Assembly (NCBI GenBank): GCA_044892525.1
Contig: CM097885.1
Coordinates: forward strand, 9,364,001 to 9,428,000
Reading direction: 5' to 3'
DNA: 64,000 bases
Source: Schmidtea polychroa
Lineage: Eukaryota
Below, in pieces: positions 5,822 through 56,257 of this stretch. A model generated the notes under the pieces. The model was given only the letters and a program-made list of their open reading frames with translations, did no database searches and was not told where the DNA came from. A program made the position numbers and the translations under genes. The first letter of the stretch is position 1. Every line of letters starts with the position of its first letter.

Positions 5822-6136
5822 CCCATTCGCGGACACATGAAATTTAGAAAATGTTCGCAAAGTGACACAAGTAATTATTTGGTTTTAATGCAGATATTTA
5901 AATTCGGATTTCAGTTTTAGGTTTGTGGTTTATTTAATTTTGGATTTTTACTGAAAACAAAATAAATATAATATGTCGAAACACACCGACGTGTCCTACA
6001 TATAAAACCAATACAATCGCAGACGGGTAGGTTCGACGTGTTTATACACGATATTTTTTATGTGTCAGCATATGCCGACGTGTCCAAATTTAAGCAATTC
6101 GTAGTGTCGGCCTATGCCGACGTGTCCGCGAAAGGG
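5822..6136. mobile_element. piggyBac-type MITE
   Basis: TIRs CCCATTCGCGGACAC / GTGTCCGCGAAAGGG, TTAA on both sides, internal CCGACGTGTC repeats. Confidence 0.85.
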
Positions 6137-6859: not shown

Positions 6860-7206
6860 CAGTGGTTCTCAATTAATATAAAAGCGCGGAATACCATTCA
6901 CATGATTTTTTTCACGTGGAACACTGACAAAAAATACTTGCCCACAATGAGTAACCAATCACAAATTGCTATAAATCTGTCGTAAACGTAAACAATGCCT
7001 TCTTATAAGCAAAGAAAATACTACGCGCAACAATAACAAGCAATAAAAACACTTTTATATTTGTATGTTTATATATCTGTGTAACGGCTTTCTTATTGAA
7101 TCATCTTATAAAAAAATTAATTGAGGTTTTTGATGATATGTATCTTAAATGCAAATTTAAAGATAAAATGTCATTTTTTTCGAGGAACACGGGTTGAGAA
7201 CCACTG
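6860..7206. mobile_element. hAT-type MITE
   Basis: TIRs CAGTGGTTCTCAA / TTGAGAACCACTG; 8-bp TSD GTCTAAAG / GTCTAGAG. Confidence 0.85.
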
Positions 7207-9869: not shown

Positions 9870-11788
9870 CACAACTGTAATGCTCTGAATCTATTGAAGA
9901 CATTTAGACAGCGCTCGGTTGCTGTAAGAGCAAAGCACCGTAAAACGAGACATACCTGTATTACCACTATTGCAAAACAATGAAATTTGGCGGTCAAGTG
10001 GAGAGCGTAAATTATTTTGAAAGATTGCTAAAAGATAAAATTGAAGACGGCAATATTTAGAAAAACTGTCCGTATCCAATAAAGCACAAATTGCATCATT
10101 TAAGGTAGCAGAAATTATAGCAATAAAGTTAAAAGCACATACCATAGCAGAGAATCTAATTTTGCCAGCATGCTCTGAGATTAATAAAATTATGTTTTGG
10201 GATGATGCAAAAAATGAAATTATGAAAATCCCTCCTACGGACGACCCAATTAAAAAAAGAATTTTTGACATGTCAGATGATATTGAGAAGAAAGTTATTA
10301 CAAAGCTTCCGGGGCAGTACTTTGCTTTGCAAATGGACAAGTTCACCGATTTTAGCGGTATGGTCTGCCTGATAGGATTTATACGTTTTAATAATGAAAA
10401 TGAAATAGTGAACCGATTTTTCTGCAGCAGACAGCTTGTTGAACGCACAACAGGAAATGTTATTATTAATCAGTTTCGTCATATTTAGATAAATTTCAAA
10501 TAACATGGGACCAATGTGTAGGAATTTGTACCGATAATGCCTTTTCAATCGTCAGCTCTATTAAAGGATGTATTGTTTTTGTGAAGAAAAAATTCCAAAC
10601 ATCATAGTGACACACTGTTTTTTGCATCGAGAATCTCTTGTATCAAAAACTTTATCTGCCACATTAAAATCCGTCTTAGACCAAGTAGTTAACATAGTAA
10701 ATTATATCAAATCACGACCTTTGCAAACCCGGTTATTTAACCCTCTCCGTATATTTGTCGAATATATTCGATATTAAAGCAAGATGTCACTTCCAGTTTC
10801 ATAGGCCATTGCAAAAGTACATCGTTTTCACCGCGCATTATGAAAAAGAAAACAGAAAGATGTGTCCCTTTTCCAGCTTTGAATCCATCGGGATGAAGCT
10901 GAAGGCACATTTTGTAACCGTTTTTGTGGGAATAGAACGGGTCACTATAAATATCAGCATTATTTTTTACACAGAGAGGGTTAAAAACCTTTGTGCATCT
11001 ATGGATGCTCAACATGAGTCTTTACTTCTGTATACTGAGGTACGTTGGTTATCACGAGGCAAAGTGTTGAATTGACTTTCGGAACTGAAGAATGAATTAT
11101 CCGTATTTTTTGAAACTTATTTAACAGACAATATTTGGTGCATGAAAATGCCATATTTAGCTGATATTTTTAATTATTTAAATATTGCTAATGCTTGTAT
11201 ACAAGGTTAAAACGAAAATATTTTAACACCCTCTGATATACTATCAGCATTTCAAAAAAGAATTTCGTTTTGGAGAACAGGTTTACTTCAAAAGAGAACA
11301 ATGGACATGTTTTCTTCAGTCCACATTCAAAATAACAATGCCGATGAAATAATGCCTATCATTACTCAACATTTAGAATTATTAGAAGAGGAAGAAGTTA
11401 TTACGTTGTCAACAGATCGTTCACTCAAAATAAAGTTTTCCCAATTAACAATTGAAGAATTTTGGATAACCGTTCAAACCGAATTTAAAACAATTTCCGA
11501 AAAACTCGTTAAATTTTTATAACAATTTTCAACATCATATTTATGCAAGCTTGAATTTTCAACATTAACCAATATCAAGACAATGTAACATGAAAAAAAA
11601 CTTGTCGCGGTTGGGGGACTCTCCCCTCCCCACAACACTAACCAAAAAGTTTAGATAGATTTTGCACTTCGTGCAAATATTGCACCTTCGTTCTCGATCA
11701 GTACTTAGTTGAAAGAACCCCAGTTGTTCCGCCAAATATTTTGAGATAGTCAAGTGCTCCTTCATTACCAAAAGGTTAAGAACCACTG
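9870..11788 (+). mobile_element. Decayed hAT (Buster/Charlie, ZBED5-like) transposon
   Basis: FALQMD, THCFLHRESL, LLYTEVRWLSRGKVL motifs; right TIR AAGAACCACTG ending 11788; many lesions. Confidence 0.85.
10741..10980 (-). mobile_element. piggyBac-type non-autonomous element carrying a TRAF MATH-domain fragment
   Basis: TTAA at 10737-40 and 10981-84; TIR CCCTCTC.../...GAGAGGG. Removing it restores the hAT frame RLFKNLCA. The interior encodes SDPFYSHKNGYKMCLQLHPDG..GKGTHLSVFFFIMRGENDVLLQWP. Confidence 0.85.
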
Positions 11789-11929: not shown

Positions 11930-12100
11930 TAAATTAACCCACTTTCCATGATCGGATAGATCTGAAATTTTGATAGCATTCAGTGCTCTTGACAACGAAT
12001 TTCAACTCAATCCGATGACGGAAAGTAAGTTAATTTGGTCTCACAAAATTTGCGCGGCACATACAAACATACAAACATCAGCGTAGTTATGTAAAGAGTA
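11930..12100. repeat. Possible Helentron/DINE-1-like non-autonomous fragment
   Basis: Inverted repeat AAATTAACCCACTTTCC / GGAAAGTAAGTTAATTT followed by ACATACAA repeats. Confidence 0.35.
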
Positions 12101-16219: not shown

Positions 16220-16280
16220 GCAGGAGACGCGAAAATTTCTCTTTGCGCCAAGTAAGTATACAATATACAATTACAACAAC

Positions 16281-16590
16281 CGAGAAATAAATGTGCACAT
16301 TATGGGATCGATCCGGGGTGTGTTCGAAAGACTGGTGACGATAATTACCGGTTCGCCACCACACCCCGTTTCAATATTTTTTTTTTCATATTTATGTTTA
16401 AAAAATAATTAATTAATAAAAAAAATAAAATATACAAGATGTGTTTCCTAAGATACCCACACTATATATTTTTTTTAATATTTATTTTTAAAATTATTTT
16501 CAATATTATTTTCAAATTTTTAATATTATTTTATGTTGAAAAAAAACTAACCTCAGACATGATTTGAACCACTAGCATTTGAACCACTGT
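16281..16590 (+). repeat. Left 310-bp inverted repeat
   Basis: CGAGAAATAAATGTGCAC...GAACCACTGT. Confidence 0.95.
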
Positions 16591-16621
16591 GCCAGTCTAT
16601 TCCCACTGCGCTATCAGGGTT
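16539..16621 (-). ncRNA. Putative tRNA-like RNA polymerase III transcription unit
   Basis: A box TAGCGCAGTGG (16613-16603), B box GGTTCAAATC (16570-16561), T8 terminator, AACC/GGTT closing stem, internal ACTGGCA/TGCTAGT stem. Confidence 0.55.
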
Positions 16622-16712
16622 CTGATTTTTGTCATTTTTTTAAATTTTAATATATAAAAATGAATAATATAAATCTTAAAATTCAAGAAAAAAGTTGTGT
16701 AGTATGAACTCA

Positions 16713-16940
16713 TCATTCACAAGTATAAATCGATTCAAGTTCTTTAACTCTTTCCTGTAATTGTTTCATTTTCTTTAACCTTATCTCAGCAACTTCTACA
16801 GCTTTCATGTAAAAATGTCGATACTTTTCATTCTCTACCTCCAACTCTTCAATATATACTAATGGTTCTTCTCTTCTTTTCATTCTCTCAAGTTTAACTT
16901 CTTTCAATTCATTTCTCATTCTTTTAATTATATCATTCAT
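16713..16940 (-). CDS. Small coiled-coil-like protein of the Polinton unit (75 aa)
   Basis: Intact ORF, E/K-rich heptad-like pattern, preceded by TATAAAAATG like the MCP ORF. Confidence 0.55.
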   Translation of the reverse strand: MNDIIKRMRNELKEVKLERMKRREEPLVYIEELEVENEKYRHFYMKAVEVAEIRLKKMKQLQERVKELESIYTCE

Positions 16941-16986
16941 TTTTATAAATTATTTTTTACTGGTATATTAATTTTAATATATAAAA

Positions 16987-18273
16987 ATGAATAATATAAA
17001 AATTCAAGAAAAAAATAAATTAAATCTTGATTATAATAAAGAATTTACTCATGAAATCAAGAAAAATGATGTACTTAAAATCTCCTCAACTTCAGGATCT
17101 ATTGCAAACTTAAATCGTAGGGGTGATATAGTTTTTCAATCTCTTCAAACATCAAACCCTATAGATATTTGTAATGCCAAATTATATTATAAAATTGAAT
17201 TAGAAATTGAAGCAAACAAAGATATAACCCTAGAAAATAATTTCTTTCCAAATTTATTCTCCAACATGAGATTAAAACTAGGATCATCAGAAATTGAAAC
17301 TGTTTTACATCCAGGAGTATATTCTACAATGTTAAATTTTATTTTGACTGGTTGTGATTATAAAAACGAATATGGTGAATTAACAGGCTGGATTCCTGAT
17401 GTTAATAAAGGGGATTTAGATAAAGATGGTTTAGATTTAAATTATGGTTATTATAAAAGAGCTGAACTTTATAAATTTAAAAAATTTGAAGGTTATTTTG
17501 AATTAAAACATTTATTTGGATTCCTTCAAAACTATAATCGTATACTTCATAATGTTTTTATAGAATTAGTTTGTAATAGACTAGAAGGTGATAAAAGATT
17601 GTTCTATGGAGCTGCAGATACAAAAGCTAAATTAAAATTATCAACACTTGAATTGCATATACCTGAATGGACATTAAATCCACATTCTGAAATCAAACTC
17701 CTTGAAAAATTAAATTCCAACAAGTCTATAAATGTAAATTATTTAAATAGAATCTGTAGTGAATTTAGTATGACAGAGGGTTCAACATATTCTATAAAGG
17801 TAGCAAATTTAGCATACCGACCAAGATATATCTTGATTGGATTCAAAGAAGTAGATTCATCTTTCCAAAAAAATAACAATCTATTTATTCAAAAGATTGG
17901 AGATGATAATTTAAAAACAATCCAAATTCAATTAAATAATTCCTATTATCCAATAAATAGAATGGAGTTTAATATTGAAAAAAATGAAAACATATTCCCA
18001 TATTTAAATTATATTGAAACATGTCAAGACTTTAAAGTTGAACCACAATTAAGTCTAGAAGATTTCAAAAATTTATATTCTATATTTTGTATAAATGTAT
18101 CAGACCAAGATGATAGATTAGCCAAAAATAATGTTGATGTTACACTTCATGTAACAAAGGATTCTAATTTTAAAGCTAAAGTATATACATTAATATTAGA
18201 AGAAAAGAAAATAGAAATGAAATTGTATGGTGGAAAGATTTCAATAATTGAAAATGTCAGAGGTGATTCCTAG
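16987..18273 (+). CDS. Polinton major capsid protein (double jelly-roll), 428 aa
   Basis: Intact ORF; LENNFFPNLFSNMRLKLGSSEIE..HPG..STM, RPRYILIGF, IQLNNSYYP match Polinton MCP patterns; genomic context. Confidence 0.8.
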   Translation: MNNIKIQEKNKLNLDYNKEFTHEIKKNDVLKISSTSGSIANLNRRGDIVFQSLQTSNPIDICNAKLYYKIELEIEANKDITLENNFFPNLFSNMRLKLGSSEIETVLHPGVYSTMLNFILTGCDYKNEYGELTGWIPDVNKGDLDKDGLDLNYGYYKRAELYKFKKFEGYFELKHLFGFLQNYNRILHNVFIELVCNRLEGDKRLFYGAADTKAKLKLSTLELHIPEWTLNPHSEIKLLEKLNSNKSINVNYLNRICSEFSMTEGSTYSIKVANLAYRPRYILIGFKEVDSSFQKNNNLFIQKIGDDNLKTIQIQLNNSYYPINRMEFNIEKNENIFPYLNYIETCQDFKVEPQLSLEDFKNLYSIFCINVSDQDDRLAKNNVDVTLHVTKDSNFKAKVYTLILEEKKIEMKLYGGKISIIENVRGDS

Positions 18274-18301
18274 AGAGTTTCTCTAAATATCTATAAATAA
18301 A

Positions 18302-18766
18302 ATGTCTCTAAGTAAACCATATTGGAAATGTGAAACCTGCCAGTGTCAAGTTAGAAAACATCATAAAGGAAGCCATGTTAAAACTAAAAAACATTTAGCT
18401 CGATTAAATAATATTTTCAAAGAAACTCCAATGAATAATAATTTATGGTTAGAGTATAATCCTTCAACCAGATTCGCTTTTGAAAAAGAAGGAGCTGGAG
18501 GTGACCTACAATCTTCAAAAACAACATCTTCAATATTAAAACCCTTTACTACAGAAAAATATCCAGGCGAAAGACATTTATTCCGTCACAACTATACCGG
18601 ACCAGGAACACGTCTAGATATTAGATTAGATGAAAATAATAATCCCAAACAAGGAGAAGAACCAATAAATAGAATTGATCAAGCAGCTTTAAAACATGAC
18701 ATTGCATACAATTCAGAAGATCTTAGAGATAGACATGTTGCTGATGTTAATTTAATACATGATTAA
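18302..18766 (+). CDS. Zinc finger plus parvovirus-VP1-type phospholipase A2 domain protein
   Basis: CETC..HVKTKKH zinc finger; HNYTGPGT Ca-loop and NRIDQAALKHDIAY catalytic HD motif; in frame with the integrase past a single TAA. Confidence 0.85.
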   Translation: MSLSKPYWKCETCQCQVRKHHKGSHVKTKKHLARLNNIFKETPMNNNLWLEYNPSTRFAFEKEGAGGDLQSSKTTSSILKPFTTEKYPGERHLFRHNYTGPGTRLDIRLDENNNPKQGEEPINRIDQAALKHDIAYNSEDLRDRHVADVNLIHD

Positions 18767-18826
18767 AATAATATACAAAATCCATCAACCCAAGAAAAGA
18801 TTCAAAGAGCTCTAGTTAAATTAGCA

Positions 18827-19762
18827 ATGAAAGGTAAGATTTTTATAGGTGCAGGACTTCCTAGAATAGCAAAAGATGTTGCTAATAAAAAGATTATTGA
18901 ACAAGCAGACGCTGAAAGATCCCTTGAGAATATATCCAAGACTAGTTTATTAACCCCAACAGAATCAGAAATAAAATATGCTAATGAATTACACCATGAA
19001 TTTAGAAAAAATAAAAAATATTTAAAAGTTCAAGTACATGAAAAAGATCAAACATGGTCTGCTGATTTAGTCTTTATGCCCAAATCATCAAACCCTGAAA
19101 AATATAAAATAATTTTAACAGTAATAGATTTATATACAAGATTTGCTTTTGCAAGATGTTTAGAAAATAAAACAGGATATTCCATTACAGAAGCATTTGA
19201 AAATATATTTGAACAACATCAAAGAATTCCAAAATATTTATGGTGTGATAAAGGAACAGAATTTTATAACAAAGTTTTTACAAAGTTTTTAAATGAAAAT
19301 GATATTAAATTATATTCAACAGAAAACGAAGGAAAAGCAGTTGTAGTTGAAAGATTAAATAGAACATTAAAAAATAAAATGTGGAAATATTTTACTGCTA
19401 TTGGAAAACAAAAATGGAACAATGAATTGTTACAAAAGATTGTAAATGAATATAATAATGATGTACATAGTTCTATAAAATCAACACCTTTAAATGCTTC
19501 CTTGAATCCTTTGGAACTCGTGAATCCTGAAATAGTTAAAGTGGTAAATGAAAAACAAAAATTTAAAATTGGTGACCGCGTAAGAATATTTAAATATAAA
19601 AATAAATTTGAAAAAGGATTCACAGCAAAATGGACAAATGAAATTTTTATTATAAATAAAATACATCATACAATTCCAATAACATATGGTATCATCGATT
19701 TAAATAATGAAAAAATATTAGGTAGATTTTACAATAATGAACTACAGAAAACAAGTTTCTAA
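18827..19762 (+). CDS. Polinton retroviral-type (rve) integrase
   Basis: DDE triad WSADLV / WCDKGTEF / VERLNRTLK; KFKIGDRVRI...FEKGFTAKWTNEIF; no chromodomain. Confidence 0.9.
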   Translation: MKGKIFIGAGLPRIAKDVANKKIIEQADAERSLENISKTSLLTPTESEIKYANELHHEFRKNKKYLKVQVHEKDQTWSADLVFMPKSSNPEKYKIILTVIDLYTRFAFARCLENKTGYSITEAFENIFEQHQRIPKYLWCDKGTEFYNKVFTKFLNENDIKLYSTENEGKAVVVERLNRTLKNKMWKYFTAIGKQKWNNELLQKIVNEYNNDVHSSIKSTPLNASLNPLELVNPEIVKVVNEKQKFKIGDRVRIFKYKNKFEKGFTAKWTNEIFIINKIHHTIPITYGIIDLNNEKILGRFYNNELQKTSF

Positions 19763-19763
19763 A

Positions 19764-20360
19764 TCAAAACAAACTTTTCTTCATTTCAGCTTCTTCTCTA
19801 TCCAAATAAATATAATTATATTTTTCTTTCCAATGATTATCAACAAACATATCAAACATATTCTTATCAGGTTCAACATTTGAAAATAAATCATTATAAA
19901 TCATATTCTTGTCCCGTCGATCTAATTTAAAAAATATAAAACAATTAGAATTATTTCTTATAGAGTTTTTATCCAAAGCATAATAAGTTTGAGATATATA
20001 AATAACATTACAATTATTATTCCGTCCTCGTGTAAAGTAACTCTTTTGAATCTCTTGGTTTTTCATGTTGACAACATCATCAAATATAACTAAATTCTTT
20101 TTATTTCTAGGAAGTAAATCACAATGTAAAACATCTTCAGGTTTATTAGAGAATAAAACTTGAATCCCATGGTCTTCACAAATATAATCGTTGTTATTAC
20201 TAATATCTGATTCCATGATCTTTTCCTTGTACCAATCAACCATATCACAAGGTTGAAAAACTTCTTCAGGACATCTATGTTGGTTTTTAAAAATATCAAT
20301 TATTGCTTTTTTAGTTAATTTATTTTCAAATCCACATTTCAAAAGTTGTAATTCCGGTTG
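19764..20360 (-). pseudogene. 5'-truncated Polinton A32-like packaging ATPase
   Basis: KNLVIFDDV (Walker B), FTRGRNNNCNVIYISQTY, IRNNSN; Walker A missing, cut at ~20360. Confidence 0.85.
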
Positions 20361-20719
20361 ATTAATGGTTGTAGAATTAAAGAAGGTGGCATTCTTCCAT
20401 TAGCTGCTTTAATACCTGCAATCATTGCTGGTTTATCAGGTGCTGCTGGAATATCTGGAGGAATTGCAACTACAGCTCAAAAAGCTAAAGAATCTCAAAA
20501 GACAGACCTAGAAAAAGAAAAACTACAAACTGAAATCGATTCAATGAAGAAGAAGGGAGGGTCCGTTGGAAAAGGTCTTTATCTTAATCCATATGAAGGT
20601 CAAAAGTCCGAAGGTTAAAAGTCTGTTGGAAAGGGTCTTTATCTTGATCCTTATAAAGGCAGAGGTTTAAATGATTTTTTAAAAAATCAAATTTCTACAT
20701 CTGAATCTTTATCTTCAAA
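20358..20719 (+). pseudogene. Polinton Gly/Ala-rich virion core or membrane-active protein fragment
   Basis: EGGILPLAALIPAIIAGLSGAAGISGG and repeated GKGLYL(N/D)PY motifs; 5'-truncated, one internal stop, ends at the right IR. Confidence 0.6.
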
Positions 20720-21029
20720 ACAGTGGTTCAAATGCTAGTGGTTCAAATCATGTCTGAGGTTAGTTTTTTTTCAACATAAAATAATATTAAAAATTTGAAA
20801 ATAATATTGAAAATAATTTTAAAAATAAATATTAAAAAAAATATATAGTGTGGGTATCTTAGGAAACACATCTTGTATATTTTATTTTTTTTATTAATTA
20901 ATTATTTTTTAAACATAAATATGAAAAAAAAAATATTGAAACGGGGTGTGGTGGCGAACCGGTAATTATCGTCACCAGTCTTTCGAACACACCCCGGATC
21001 GATCCCATAATGTGCACATTTATTTCTCG
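20720..21029 (-). repeat. Right 310-bp inverted repeat
   Basis: Reverse complement of 16281-16590. Confidence 0.95.
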
Positions 21030-21421
21030 TTTGTTTTCGGACCTCTTTCGGATTCACTTTCGAATTCATTTGTACTTTCGAGCAGCACACTTAAAACGCC
21101 GATGAAATCGACTTCGTGAGCGAGAAGCGAATAATAAGGTGTGCTGCTATTATCGAATTGATTCTGATGTATGAGTCTGGCCAGCTTGTATATTGGAAGA
21201 GATTTGATAAACGAAAGTGGTTGAAATTGATAAATAAAAAAAAATGATCCGGATCAAAAAAAACTGTTGAGAGGACAGTGGAAAAAAAAAATAAAAAAAA
21301 AGATACCACTGTCCTCTCAGAGCAGTTTTACTATTTTCATAAATTTTTATGATGTTTTTATAATGTTTTTATTTTTTATTTTTTAATTAGTCAACTAGCA
21401 AGTTGCTATTTGACATCCTCA

Positions 21422-22588: not shown

Positions 22589-24805
22589 CCTTCAAATGGT
22601 ATTCATTTGTACCAACGCTAACCGCGTTAAGGACAAAATTGTCTACCATATATTTTTTGTATCAAAATGTAACAAAAACAAAATTTTTTTAAGTTCATTA
22701 GTTTTTTATTTACATTCAAATATATAAAACAAAAATAAAAATTCAAAAAACTATTCAAAATTTTAACCAAAATAATATAAAATGAACTTAACATAATAAA
22801 TTTCTTTAATTTTTCAATTATTATGACAAGCAGGACAAATATATTTTACATGGTTTTTGCATACATAATTTTTACATTTATTACATTTTATTGTGGTTTT
22901 CCCCGTTCTGATAGGACAAGTAGAACACATGCCTCTTTTCGAAGCTGTAGGCTTCGAAGATCCGCCAGCATCATCTTGGTTTCTTTGAGCTCCCTGAATA
23001 ATATTTCTCGCGGCAAGTCCTCTAGGTAAATGTTGTCGGCTTAGCATTTGAGGTTTTATCAAACTATCACCTAATTTTTCCAAAAATAAACGTCTCTTAC
23101 TCAAACTATTACAATTCCAAGATAAATCAACTTCCTTGTAAAGTACGAAAGCATTGTAAGCAGATATATCTAACATATTGCAAAAAACAACGAATGGCCA
23201 TCTTCTAGATTTTCTTTTCGTAGAATAACAGGATACCATTTTATCTAAAGTATCCACTCCGCCTTTTGTGGCATTATAATATTTGATAATTTCAGGTTTA
23301 CGTTGAGGTTCATTAGTTATAACTTCATCAGACAAATGTAGAGTACTTTGCATCACTACGCATCGATATTTTTTAGGTACATAAGATACTAGTGTTGTAT
23401 CTTTTGTAAAAACAAATTTTGATGTATATTGTGGCAAAGATCTTGTATTCAAAATTTCTGGTGGGATTGTTGGTTTATTTTTTCTTAGTGTACCCACCAT
23501 TATTATAGATTTTTCCAGGAGTTTTTGGCCAAGCTGATATGATGTGAAAAAATTGTCGAGTGTTATGTTGTGACCTTTGAGACCCCTCACTAAATCTATT
23601 ACAATTCTCATACCTTGATTTGTTTCGGGAGCAGCATCCGGTTGTTTTCCTAAATATGGCTGTATTTTCCAAGCGTAGTAAGACTTGCTGCAAGCTGCAA
23701 TCCAAATATTTAATCCCATATTTCGCAGGTTTATTTTTCATATATTGGCGAAAAGGACATCGACCACGAAAACCAAGTAGTTGTTCGTCAACTGTCACAT
23801 TCTCTGATGGATTATAAAACATGGGTAACCTTTCACTCCATGCATCCCACAATTCTCGGGATTGGCATTTGTCATTCATACGTCTTTTTGACCGGGTTTC
23901 TTTTTTATCAAATCTAAGAATTTTTGAAATATTTTCAAATCTTTTCAATGGCATGGTTGCACGTAACAAAGGTCTACCCGTAGTTTCATGCCATAAGCTT
24001 TCAGTTGCTTCATTTTTTGACTTATAAACCCCCACTAAAATCAAGCATCCAAAATAGGAATAAAGTTCAGTTGCATCCAAATCCTTCCAACTATCTCCAA
24101 AAACGGTGTTTCCTTCACTGTTTGAGTTTTTCAAAATCATATTTTCAATAGCTTTCGGAAAAAATATCATGAATGCACTGTTTATATCAGTGATTCGGCT
24201 AGCTGCATACCTAGTAATTCCCGGAGTCATATTCAATATATTTTCTGCTCGATTGCGATACAAATTGGTACTAACAGGTTTTTGATGCCACAATACTGTC
24301 TTATCTTTCGATAAAAAACTATTTGGCTGTACATCGCCTAAACTTTCCTGATCAGAACTCGAATACTCGCTATCATTAAAAACATGGTCATCATCAGATG
24401 GATCACCTTCGCTACCACTAAAAACTAAATCTTGAATTTCTTCATCGGTTAAATTTTGATGTGTCATCATTTTGAAAACCCACAAAATAATAATTTAGAA
24501 CAAATAACATATGTTTGTTGCAAACATATGTCAAATCAAAAATCATATGTTTGTTGTAAACAGGTAAAAACAAATCATGTTTGAACTGGAATTTCATTAT
24601 AGACATTTTTGTCCACATTACGGTCAATGTGCATTTATTTATACCTAGAAATCTGTATAACACCATAAAATAAATTAAGCGGCAAATTATTAATTAAAAA
24701 AAAAGAATTTACATTGAAAAATTTTTCAAACTTAAGTTTGTATTCAGGCGTTATTTACATTTAAAAAATAATTTTGACAAAAATGTCCACAATACCATAT
24801 AAAGG
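22589..24805 (-). mobile_element. Near full-length piggyBac transposon
   Basis: TTAA on both sides; TIRs CCTTCAAATGGTATT / AATACCATATAAAGG. Confidence 0.92.
22814..24468 (-). pseudogene. piggyBac transposase with one frameshift (~23715)
   Basis: VDEQL..FRGRCPFRQYM.NKPAKYG, LDNFFTS, YNATKGGVDTLD, C-terminal Cys-rich domain. Confidence 0.9.
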
Positions 24806-28870: not shown

Positions 28871-29591
28871 CAGGAATACCTCGAACAGTACGGTTAATCG
28901 GTTCTGGAATCTAGCCGTACTATTTGAAACCGGACTATTCGAGCATTACGGCTTAGTACCCCTATTAAGAAATTTAAAAATTGTGATTATATAAAGCCGC
29001 ATCTTTATCTGCACTTGCTGATTCCCCAACAATACGTACGGTGTGGATACCAGTTCGTTCCTTATACCGAGAAAACCACCCTCGACTGGCCATAAAGGTT
29101 TCACCGGTTTCGGAACCAAGGTCTTCTACTTCATCTGTAGTCCCCAAGTCTTTGTAAAGACTTATTGCCTTCGCTTGAATTTCCATTTGAATAATTAAAA
29201 TACGTTTTTGGCTAAGGTCTTCTATCCATATAGATAATAGTCGCTCCATGTTAACCATTCGAGGGCTTCTAATTCTGGTTATCACTTTTAGCAAATATGA
29301 CGCCGTAGCTATACCTTGCGACTTGTATTGATCTTTATTTTTCACAATTTTCCGAACTGACGCCTCGTTCATTCCCCTTTCTTTTCCTAATTTAGCAAAC
29401 GAAGCCCCTTCTTCATGAAGTTTAATGACGCTAAGCTTCTGTTCTAAAGTGAGCCATTTGCGTTTTTTGGTTTTTAAACTTTTTTAAATTTCGAAAACAA
29501 TCATATTTTAAAAATTTCAAAACCGTACTATAGAGAAACCGTACTGATCGAAACCGTACTGATCGAAACCGTACTATGCGAGGTATTCCTG
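28871..29591 (-). mobile_element. Internally deleted pogo/Tigger transposon
   Basis: TA-flanked TIRs CAGGAATACCTCG / CGAGGTATTCCTG; CENP-B-type HTH (MERLLSIWI, FMASRGWFSRYK, GESASAD); DDE domain absent. Confidence 0.88.
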
Positions 29592-31882: not shown

Positions 31883-32429
31883 CCCTTTCAATACTGTAGG
31901 GACATATTGTCCCAGAGAATTTCTAATAATTACTAAAATAATATAAATGCTTACAAATGCATTCGGATCTGGGATTTTAGTAATCATAGGCTCGTAAACA
32001 AGTCCAAAATTGTCTACTTTATTTCTGTTTGCTTTTTTTCTTTTCTATAAAATTTTGTCAGTCTAGATGTTGCTAACCAACAGTAGACACGTGTTACGCT
32101 TATTATATGTGCTGTGCTTGGAATTGCCAAGTAAGATATTTATAATTTTATTTTACTTATTTAGTGTGCAGCAATAATTTTTATGAGTTTTTTTATTTCT
32201 AAAAATAAAAATGGGACTTATATGTCCCAATAGTGTTAATAATTGGAATATCATGTCCCATCAGTATTGAATAACCTATGTATTCAAAGTTTTCGTTTTA
32301 GAAGGGATAAACCTGTGTCAGATCATTCATTTAAATATTTGTTTTTCCTGTCAAACTAAATTAGCAATGAATATTTTGTGCTATAAATATTACATGAATT
32401 ATAAAAATAAAAATATCGTATTGAAAGGG
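31883..32429. mobile_element. piggyBac-type MITE
   Basis: TTAA|CCCTTTCAATAC ... GTATTGAAAGGG|TTAA. Confidence 0.85.
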
Positions 32430-55282: not shown

Positions 55283-56257
55283 ATGACTCATCATTCAAAG
55301 TTTCAAGATTTAAGTCATTTTTACAACAAAAGAAAAAATTCTAAAAATTCCCAAAAATATTTAAAACAACTTTTTCAAAAATTAAAACAAAAGAAAATTA
55401 ATTTTATCTTTTTCAAGCCTAAACCATATCCAATAAAAGAATTGGAAAACAATTACACAATTTTGGAAATGTTATTTTCCACCAAAGGTTCTTCGATATA
55501 TTTAGCTAAGCACAAACATTTCGGTTGTTTAAATGTAATGAAAACATATAAAAATAATGAATGTTTGAAAAATGAATTGAAAATTCTTAGTGAAATCGGT
55601 TTTCATGAACACATTATTCAACTAATTGAGTATAACAGATCGGATTCCTTTGGAAGGTCTTTGATGTATGAATATGCCAATGGGGGGGACTTGTGCACTG
55701 AAATGACAAATTTTGGAAAATTTGACACTAACAAGGCAGGCCGAGTTACTTTGCAAATTTTAAGTGCTGTTGAATTTTTGCACTCGAAGTCAATAATTCA
55801 CAGAGATATTAAATTAGAAAATATTGTTTGTTTTAAAAATCTTGAAACTTTGTTAAAAGTCAAATTGATAGATTTCGGGCTCTCAATTTTTTATAACAAG
55901 AAAAATCCTAAAACCAGCTCTGCAGGCACGAGGGGTTATATGGCTCCTGAAACCCTTTTAAATTACCCACAAAACTTTACTGTTGATATATGGGCTTGTG
56001 GAGTTGTCATGTATGCTATTTACACCGGATATCATCCATTCTACTCAAGTAAATTCTCTACAAACGAAATCACAAACATCACTCTTAACAACGATCTTGA
56101 TGAGAAGTACCTTCAAAACATCGACGTTGAAATTGCAATCCTCATAAAAGTTATGTTGCACAAAGATCCTATAGAAAGGCCGTTTGCAAAGGAAATTGTT
56201 CAAATCTTTAGAAAGTATTGCGTTTCTAATAATATTATTAATTGTTATGGCATTTAA
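55283..56257 (+). CDS. Serine/threonine protein kinase (CAMK-like), single ORF
   Basis: VMK, HEHIIQL, EYANGGDL, IHRDIKLEN, KLIDFG, GTRGYMAPE, DIWACGV, ERP. Confidence 0.9.
   Translation: MTHHSKFQDLSHFYNKRKNSKNSQKYLKQLFQKLKQKKINFIFFKPKPYPIKELENNYTILEMLFSTKGSSIYLAKHKHFGCLNVMKTYKNNECLKNELKILSEIGFHEHIIQLIEYNRSDSFGRSLMYEYANGGDLCTEMTNFGKFDTNKAGRVTLQILSAVEFLHSKSIIHRDIKLENIVCFKNLETLLKVKLIDFGLSIFYNKKNPKTSSAGTRGYMAPETLLNYPQNFTVDIWACGVVMYAIYTGYHPFYSSKFSTNEITNITLNNDLDEKYLQNIDVEIAILIKVMLHKDPIERPFAKEIVQIFRKYCVSNNIINCYGI

What the first reader, a model, noticed from the sequence alone, without database searches (positions are those of the whole stretch)
10737..10984. Pack-piggyBac: a 240-bp TTAA element made almost entirely of a captured TRAF MATH-domain fragment
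Seen: TTAA duplication, CCCTCTC/GAGAGGG TIRs, and clean interruption of a hAT transposase (removal restores RLFKNLCA), so the unit moved as a transposon. About 190 bp of its interior is a stop-free frame matching TRAF MATH/TRAF-C motifs (PFY..GYKMCL, G.GTHLS.FF..MRGE.D.LL.WP). Known: Pack-type host-gene capture is well described for plant MULE/CACTA/Helitron elements, much less for piggyBac in animals; TRAFs are expanded in planarians. Inference: a mobile carrier of immune-adaptor gene fragments that could feed TRAF diversification or produce antisense/piRNA regulators.
Basis: partly seen in the sequence, partly recalled or inferred. Interest (0 to 1): 0.75.

Follow-up and report, generated by a model that had tools for sequence, protein, structure and literature searches.

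The report
Jumping DNA carrying immune-gene fragment
A 240-base jumping DNA element is three-quarters a copied piece of an immune-signalling gene (TRAF) and has spread to many places in this animal's genome, which could turn that gene into an accidental target of the cell's transposon-silencing small RNAs.

Summary
Window 10741-10980 (240 bp) has TTAA on both sides and 13-bp CCCTCTC-type terminal repeats (11/13). It interrupts a decayed hAT transposase; other hAT copies carry the empty site with one TTAA (5 contigs in 3 of 4 runs laid). The interior 10785-10959 (175 bp, 73%) encodes about the first half of a TRAF MATH domain (Pfam E 3e-20; 55/58 residues identical to a stand-alone TRAF, P0002). 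Contigs of a TRAF gene continue in frame beyond both edges, so this is a cut-out. Read depth over the element is 10-60 times that of the multicopy hAT flank in two runs, roughly hundreds of copies, and contigs leave the TTAA into differing flanks. Best reading: a young non-autonomous piggyBac-type Pack-MITE, moved by a transposase in trans, with the TRAF piece as passenger. Single-copy Pack-piggyBacs are published (8 of 370 Pack-TIRs); amplification on this scale was not reported there. A role in TRAF diversification is unlikely (half domain, no native start). A role as antisense piRNA source against traf mRNA is untested but testable. No call named the organism.

The parts
10737..10740 (.). 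TTAA target-site copy, left; its TAA also stops the minus-strand frame
   Evidence: contigs leave the stretch here into differing flanks (table 7)
10741..10753 (+). 13-bp terminal inverted repeat, CCCTCTC type
   Evidence: 11/13 match to the other end
10756..10773 (.). Subterminal palindrome: 14 bp perfect in this copy (10758-10771); 18 bp with the letter that other copies show at 10772. Inferred transposase-binding site
   Evidence: table 3 (T>C at 10772 in 14 contigs of X1, 14 of X5, 3 of X7, 1 of X11); extension to 18 bp read by hand
10741..10784 (+). Transposon-derived end, 44 bp, not TRAF
   Evidence: similarity to P0002 stops at 10785; TRAF contig diverges there
10785..10959 (-). Captured TRAF MATH-domain coding fragment, 175 bp, 58 full codons, matching P0002 residues 121-178
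   Evidence: edges from loose ends in X7
10960..10980 (-). Transposon-derived end, 21 bp: T-rich spacer and 13-bp terminal inverted repeat (10968-10980)
   Evidence: a variant end in X1 matches the other terminus at 12/13 (table 7, compared by hand)
10981..10984 (.). TTAA target-site copy, right
   Evidence: X11 and X7 contigs leave here into unrelated flanks
10045..11788 (+). Host: decayed hAT-type (ZBED5/FAM200/GTF2IRD2-like) transposase relic with stops and frameshifts; a likely right terminus at 11775-11788; left terminus not found
   Evidence: weak DUF4371 hit E 0.059; Atlas look-alikes FAM200/GTF2IRD2/ZBED8 at 0.90-0.91; terminus motif (family label recalled); multicopy with empty sites

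Best explanation
A young, high-copy, non-autonomous piggyBac-type element (Pack-MITE). Step 1 (inferred): the interior of a piggyBac with CCCTCTC termini was replaced by 175 bp of a low-copy host TRAF gene, cut from within the MATH coding region, most likely by gap repair or template switching after a break, leaving 44 and 21 bp of transposon ends. Step 2 (shown by sequence and contigs): the chimera kept both termini and inserts at TTAA with duplication of the site. Step 3 (inferred from known piggyBac chemistry): a transposase encoded elsewhere cuts and pastes it, and repair from the sister copy raises its number. Step 4 (shown roughly): it reached about 10^2, possibly 10^3, copies, one of which landed in this dead hAT. 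The TRAF piece is most likely a passenger that serves as spacer between the ends and makes no working protein.
For: TTAA duplication and 11/13 termini. CCCTC is one of four common piggyBac terminal motifs and TTAA the usual target (PMC10813416, passages). Exact empty site, a joint skipping 244 letters, in X1 (1 contig), X5 (3) and X7 (1); none in X11, where only 1 contig was laid. Contigs leave the left TTAA into flanks that disagree with each other: 6 in X1 (agreement 0.59), 5 in X5 (0.55); an X11 contig covers 10768-10984 with 2 differences and goes on into another flank. Lowest bin over the element is 143 (X1) and 345 (X5) times the median single-contig depth, and 10 and 24 times the summed hAT flank. 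Interior 55/58 identical to P0002; 50/58 and 48/58 to P0003 and P0004, which end right after their MATH domain. In X7, contigs run on past both edges; read by hand they match P0002 residues 179-188 (10/10) and 111-120 (9/10). Only 1% of what was laid runs on unlike the stretch in X1 and X5, against 17% in X7, which fits a low-copy, expressed donor.
Against: No genome assembly was held, so copies, donor locus and partner transposase were not seen directly. The tool warns that summed depth is no copy number: overlapping contigs inflate it, a filter removes human-like contigs. No autonomous partner found: the window's own piggyBac (22589-24805) has other termini. No listed contig bridges this particular insertion, and the empty-site contigs are diverged paralogues (about 30 differences in 259 bp), not the orthologous allele. 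X7 being RNA is a guess. The capture mechanism rests on published models and one weak joint (10787 to 10959, 26 letters on the short side, X7 only).
Confidence: 0.82

Rival explanations
1. Same element, but with a regulatory effect: copies are transcribed in both orientations or sit in piRNA clusters, yield piRNAs perfectly complementary to the donor traf mRNA, and trigger its slicing and ping-pong turnover in trans.
For: The captured piece appears identical to the donor over 156 bp in X7: one contig (10785-10940, depth 579, 0 differences) alone covers two bins and begins at the capture edge. An element-specific contig (10758-10814, depth 384) is in X7, which may be RNA. In S. mediterranea, SMEDWI-3 degrades many traf mRNAs by ping-pong and needs near-perfect complementarity (PMC6824462, passages).
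Against: No small-RNA data seen; organism not identified; X7 not shown to be RNA, and its enrichment over the hAT flank is only 2-5 times that of X1 and X5. The published genic piRNAs cover many traf genes, whereas this element matches one subfamily; the next relative is 73% identical in protein.
Confidence: 0.22
2. The donor is another mobile element rather than a host gene: a MATH domain of a Burro/GYPSM1-type LTR retrotransposon, or a larger TRAF-carrying transposon of which this is a deletion product.
For: Planarian Burro elements encode MATH_TRAF_C, in the polyprotein or as an accessory ORF (PMC6431247, passages). P0002-P0004 are N-terminally incomplete or short and show no RING domain.
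Against: P0002-P0004 have coiled coil plus MATH and end at the same place, 82-85% identical over about 200 residues. No long protein above 48% identity appears among the best 150 of 4474 hits. Only 1% runs on unlike in X1 and X5, where a donor in hundreds of copies should show.
Confidence: 0.1
3. The element feeds TRAF diversification by donating MATH sequence to new genes, through exonisation or gene conversion.
For: The frame is open over 81 codons; MATH genes are expanded in S. mediterranea (PMC6109357, PMC7586133, passages); some Pack-TIRs form chimeric transcripts (PMC8277862).
Against: Only profile positions 3-60 of 125 are present; the first Met is codon 25; openness of the two ends is at chance level; this copy sits antisense in a dead hAT; a search for proteins of 44-142 residues found none.
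Confidence: 0.06
4. A one-off repair insertion or assembly artefact whose termini are coincidental.
For: No listed contig spans this insertion; only one copy in the 64-kb window.
Against: High depth and heterogeneous flanks in two studies, exact empty sites in three runs; chance rate 5 in 150 windows.
Confidence: 0.02

Closest known systems
Animal Pack-TIRs, incl. Pack-piggyBac cases (Tan et al. 2021, PMC8277862)
   Same: Terminal-repeat DNA transposon ends around a captured host piece; median captured size 224 bp. 8 of 370 listed cases are PiggyBac superfamily: 2 medaka, 5 on assembly strPur2, 1 zebrafish.
   Different: That survey found only four multicopy cases in reference genomes (three frog, one alligator; the example has 3 copies) plus Ssk-FB4 with four copies. 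Here depth suggests hundreds, and the cargo is protein-coding and 73% of the element.
piggyBac-derived MITEs (e.g. coral CMITEs, PMC2872659)
   Same: Short, non-coding, probably moved in trans by piggyBac-like transposases (abstract only).
   Different: The CMITE interior is of unknown origin; here the interior is traced to a TRAF coding region with both edges mapped.
Plant Pack-MULEs
   Same: Gene-fragment cargo, about one third multicopy, antisense small-RNA effects proposed (as cited in PMC8277862).
   Different: Other superfamily and kingdom; long terminal repeats and 8-11 bp target duplications there (recalled), 13 bp and TTAA here.
Bat Helitrons carrying gene fragments (Thomas et al. 2014, PMC4224331)
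   Same: Host gene pieces amplified to high number in an animal: 12,382 copies over 54 genes and 16 non-genic regions.
   Different: Rolling-circle mechanism without terminal repeats or TTAA duplication. It shows that high-copy gene-fragment cargo is known in animals, but not for this superfamily in what I read.
TRAF family MATH (TRAF-C) domain; nearest P0002, P0003, P0004; TRAF3/TRAF2/TRAF5 in the PDB
   Same: Clear homology over the first half of the domain.
   Different: No RING, zinc fingers, coiled coil or second half of MATH; not a TRAF gene.

Membership tests
piggyBac superfamily, non-autonomous | TTAA target duplicated on both sides | tested here: met
   empty sites hold one TTAA
piggyBac superfamily, non-autonomous | Short terminal inverted repeats (about 12-19 bp) starting CC/CCC | tested here: met
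   13 bp, 11/13, CCCTC start; criteria from PMC5381638 and PMC10813416
piggyBac superfamily, non-autonomous | An autonomous piggyBac with the same termini in the genome | tested here: inconclusive
   Only the window could be searched; its piggyBac has other termini. No genome held; published terminus tables not readable
piggyBac superfamily, non-autonomous | Precise excision and mobilisation by a piggyBac transposase | not testable with these tools
   needs an excision or transposition assay
MITE | Short, no transposase, many similar copies at independent sites | tested here: met
   240 bp; depth and differing flanks; copy number only rough
Pack-TIR | Internal sequence duplicated from a parental locus that continues beyond the captured piece | tested here: met
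   TRAF-coding contigs run on past 10785 and 10959 in X7; P0002 match
Pack-TIR | Parental copy is a non-TE host locus | tested here: inconclusive
   Indirect only: stand-alone TRAF-like relatives, 1% run-on in X1 and X5; locus not seen
Pack-TIR | A known parent transposon with the same ends and no cargo | tested here: inconclusive
   One weak joint 10787 to 10959 in X7, interior not given
Kolobok / T2-MITE (also TTAA) | Termini begin with two purines (recalled, from no call) | tested here: not met
   termini begin CCC
TRAF gene | Complete MATH domain after a coiled coil | tested here: not met
   profile 3-60 of 125 only

The most novel reading that the evidence does not exclude
A piggyBac MITE captured a host immune-adaptor exon piece, amplified it to hundreds of near-identical copies, and thereby put the host traf gene under piRNA control: transposon-silencing piRNAs from the MITE slice the donor mRNA in trans. 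If the host is a planarian, this would give a concrete origin for the antisense triggers behind the reported PIWI ping-pong turnover of traf mRNAs, and the cargo might persist because it damps an immune or stress pathway.
Probability: 0.2. Interest if true: 0.85.

Novelty: new variant of a known kind. Interest (0 to 1): 0.6.

Why it matters
Animal Pack-TIRs were reported as almost all single-copy and made without transposition. A piggyBac Pack element that went on to amplify a coding fragment to hundreds of copies is a clear counter-example and a clean system for the capture mechanism, as both edges are mapped to the base. It also matters in practice: such a repeat inflates MATH-domain counts, confuses read mapping, probes and RNAi for the donor TRAF, and causes repeat masking of a real exon. 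Most importantly it makes a sharp, cheap test of how host genes become piRNA targets: piRNAs and cleavage should concentrate in the 175 captured bases of the donor mRNA.

Tried and rejected
No whole genome was held, so no genome-wide BLAST. No second copy in the window by blastn or tblastn. Metagenome scan: 4 of 306 candidate stretches encode relatives, all distant TRAFs at 48-56%. Viral contigs: 0 matches to a 20-base terminal pattern. Prokaryote genomes: 2 matches to a 20-base internal pattern, both isolated 21-base chance hits. Protein search at 44-142 residues: none. Rfam: 0 matches. The RNA fold z-score of -3.8 is largely the pairing of the termini and was not taken as a structured RNA. 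The dip in depth in mid-element was not interpreted, since human-like contigs are filtered. The window's kinase ORF did not name the organism (best 39% identity). Two other TTAA-bounded MITEs in the window gave no Pfam hit above cut-off in 14 of their 16 stop-free frames of 28 codons or more that were sent. The hAT pieces gave no Pfam hit above cut-off. Earlier scan notes: nothing by sequence or words. Literature: no description of this element in searches; Repbase and most subscription journals were not searchable, so it may already be catalogued as a repeat. Supplements of PMC10813416 and PMC5381638, which list piggyBac termini, could not be read; bioRxiv supplements are closed. PMC10954484 and bioRxiv 10.64898/2026.01.28.702291 do not mention TRAF in the main text. 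Kolobok rejected on the CCC termini.

Full report
1. Observation. The stretch 10737-10984 reads TTAA, 240 bp, TTAA. The two ends match at the first 7 bases and at 11 of 13. Such a pair of ends arose 5 times in 150 simulated windows, against 4 in the real one. Taking out the 240 bp and one TTAA rejoins a reading frame of the surrounding transposase relic. That relic has a weak DUF4371 hit (E 0.059, below cut-off), and its piece just upstream of the insertion resembles FAM200/GTF2IRD2/ZBED8-like clusters at 0.90-0.91, so it is hAT-like; the family label Buster/Charlie is recalled. On the minus strand, 10982-10740 is open for 81 codons and matches TRAF-mep_MATH (E 3.1e-20) and MATH_2 (E 9.9e-15), and 28 PDB sequences, all TRAFs, TRAF3 first.

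2. It is a family. No genome was held, so I laid public contigs of 4 of 23 listed runs on 10400-11300 at 80% likeness. Summed depth over the element is 6,564-97,485 in X1 and 12,404-78,001 in X5, while single contigs have a median of 46 and 36. The lowest bin is thus 143 and 345 single-contig depths, and 10 and 24 times the flank, which is itself multicopy. The tool warns that this is no copy number, so I take it only as order 10^2, perhaps 10^3. Six contigs in X1 and five in X5 leave the left TTAA into flanks that disagree with one another; single contigs in X7 and X11 leave the right TTAA into other flanks. The X11 contig covers 10768-10984 with 2 differences. The family looks young: 106 of 250 contigs laid in X1 (element and flanks together) are 99% alike or better. 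A joint that skips exactly 244 letters, the element plus one TTAA, is in X1 (1 contig), X5 (3) and X7 (1). These are diverged hAT paralogues, not the orthologous allele, but they show that the hAT family lacked the insert. No listed contig bridges this very insertion, as expected for a high-copy repeat, so its junctions rest on the window alone.

3. The cargo and its edges. The closest protein, P0002, is identical at 55 of 58 residues; P0003 and P0004 at 50 and 48. [quoted passage not shown] Among the best 150 of 4474 hits in the 50% library, only P0003 is close; all others are at most 48% identical to P0002. In X7, one long contig leaves the element at 10785 and one at 10959. Read by hand, their 30 shown letters match P0002 residues 179-188 (10 of 10) and 111-120 (9 of 10), in frame with the interior. 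That both belong to one gene is inferred. The captured piece is therefore 10785-10959, 175 bp, 73% of the element, with 44 and 21 bp of transposon ends. In X7 one contig spans 10785-10940 with no difference and alone accounts for the depth of two bins (579); an element-only contig ends 30 bases into it. This suggests donor and element share that path, hence a recent capture; filtered contigs could hide a differing donor. Neither edge shows an AG or GT splice dinucleotide in the element, so the cut is probably inside an exon; the donor's exon map was not seen. Two other X7 contigs with short matches read as more distant TRAF paralogues (by hand). A donor in many copies should show as contigs running on unlike the stretch; these are 1% in X1 and X5 and 17% in X7, which favours a low-copy gene, expressed if X7 is RNA (a guess by the tool).

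4. Mechanism. Shown: intact ends, TTAA duplication, empty sites, many copies, cargo cut from a TRAF coding region. Inferred from piggyBac biology (PMC5381638, PMC10813416; passages): a transposase in trans binds the termini, and probably the subterminal palindrome at 10756-10773, which is longer with the letter most copies carry at 10772. Inferred from PMC8277862 (passages and Supplementary Data 1): capture by gap filling or fork stalling and template switching, then transposition. One X7 joint (10787 to 10959, 26 letters on the short side, interior not given) may be a sibling with the same ends and another interior; it is a lead only. The partner transposase was not found; the piggyBac at 22589-24805 has other termini. 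The cargo is most likely a passenger: profile positions 3-60 of 125, first Met at codon 25, and end-to-end openness at chance level. Confidence 0.82.

5. Rivals. Regulation by piRNAs (0.22, compatible with the best reading): in S. mediterranea SMEDWI-3 degrades many traf mRNAs by ping-pong and needs near-perfect pairing (PMC6824462, passages); a repeat identical to a traf exon is a natural trigger. I saw no small-RNA data, X7 is only 2-5 times richer in the element than the other two runs relative to the flank, and the element matches one subfamily only. A mobile donor (0.10): Burro retrotransposons encode a MATH domain (PMC6431247, passages); the evidence in section 3 is against it but indirect. 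TRAF diversification (0.06) and one-off insertion or artefact (0.02) are poorly supported.

6. Comparison with what is known. It works like a Pack-TIR and like a MITE, and meets the two sequence criteria for piggyBac that I could test; the autonomous partner and mobilisation are open. Capture by piggyBac in animals is published: 8 of the 370 rows in Supplementary Data 1 of PMC8277862. That paper found four multicopy cases in reference genomes, in frog and alligator, and Ssk-FB4 with four copies. High-copy gene-fragment cargo in animals is known from bat Helitrons (PMC4224331, passages). Coral CMITEs are piggyBac-linked MITEs with an interior of unknown origin (PMC2872659, abstract). I found no account of this element in searches, but Repbase and most subscription papers were out of reach. 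TRAF expansion in planarians is published (PMC6109357, PMC7586133; passages), but no call named this organism: low GC and AAT repeats fit a planarian and do not prove it. Other papers opened: PMC11663942 (passages), PMC10954484 and one 2026 preprint (term search, no TRAF mention).

7. Verdict. Real, and larger than first reported: a young, high-copy piggyBac-type MITE made mostly of a TRAF coding fragment with base-level edges. It is a new variant of a known kind. Interest 0.6; 0.85 if it proves to be the piRNA trigger against its donor gene (probability 0.2).

Noticed in passing
window 16275-21035: 4.8-kb element bounded by 316-bp inverted repeats (99.7% identical) with a double-jelly-roll capsid-like ORF (16978-18273) and an rve integrase ORF (18767-19762): a Polinton-like, virus-derived insertion. 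No polymerase-sized ORF in the list.
   Followed up: no
window 22589-24805: TTAA-flanked piggyBac, 2.2 kb, transposase in two overlapping minus-strand frames (DDE_Tnp_1_7 hits), termini starting CCTT; not the partner of the TRAF element.
   Followed up: partly
window 5822-6136 and 31883-32429: Two further TTAA-flanked MITEs with CCC termini (12/13 each); no Pfam cargo found. Several piggyBac lineages are or were active here.
   Followed up: partly
window 6860-7206: About 350-bp unit bounded by inverted motifs like the terminus at 11775-11788: probably a hAT MITE of the same group as the interrupted relic.
   Followed up: no
window 55283-56257: Uninterrupted 324-codon protein kinase ORF (Pkinase E 1.3e-50) with no close relative among the best 120 hits, at most about 39% over two thirds of its length.
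   Followed up: partly
window 11931-12036: 39-nt inverted repeat arms, 82% complementary, 28 nt apart, beginning near a TTAA-CCC motif; perhaps a decayed MITE.
   Followed up: no
run X7, joint 10787 to 10959: One contig holds both ends of the element but not the TRAF interior; possible cargo-free parent or sibling.
   Followed up: no
window 28974-29483: Tigger/pogo-like transposase fragment (CENP-B_N, HTH_Tnp_Tc5) next to a long AAT repeat.
   Followed up: no
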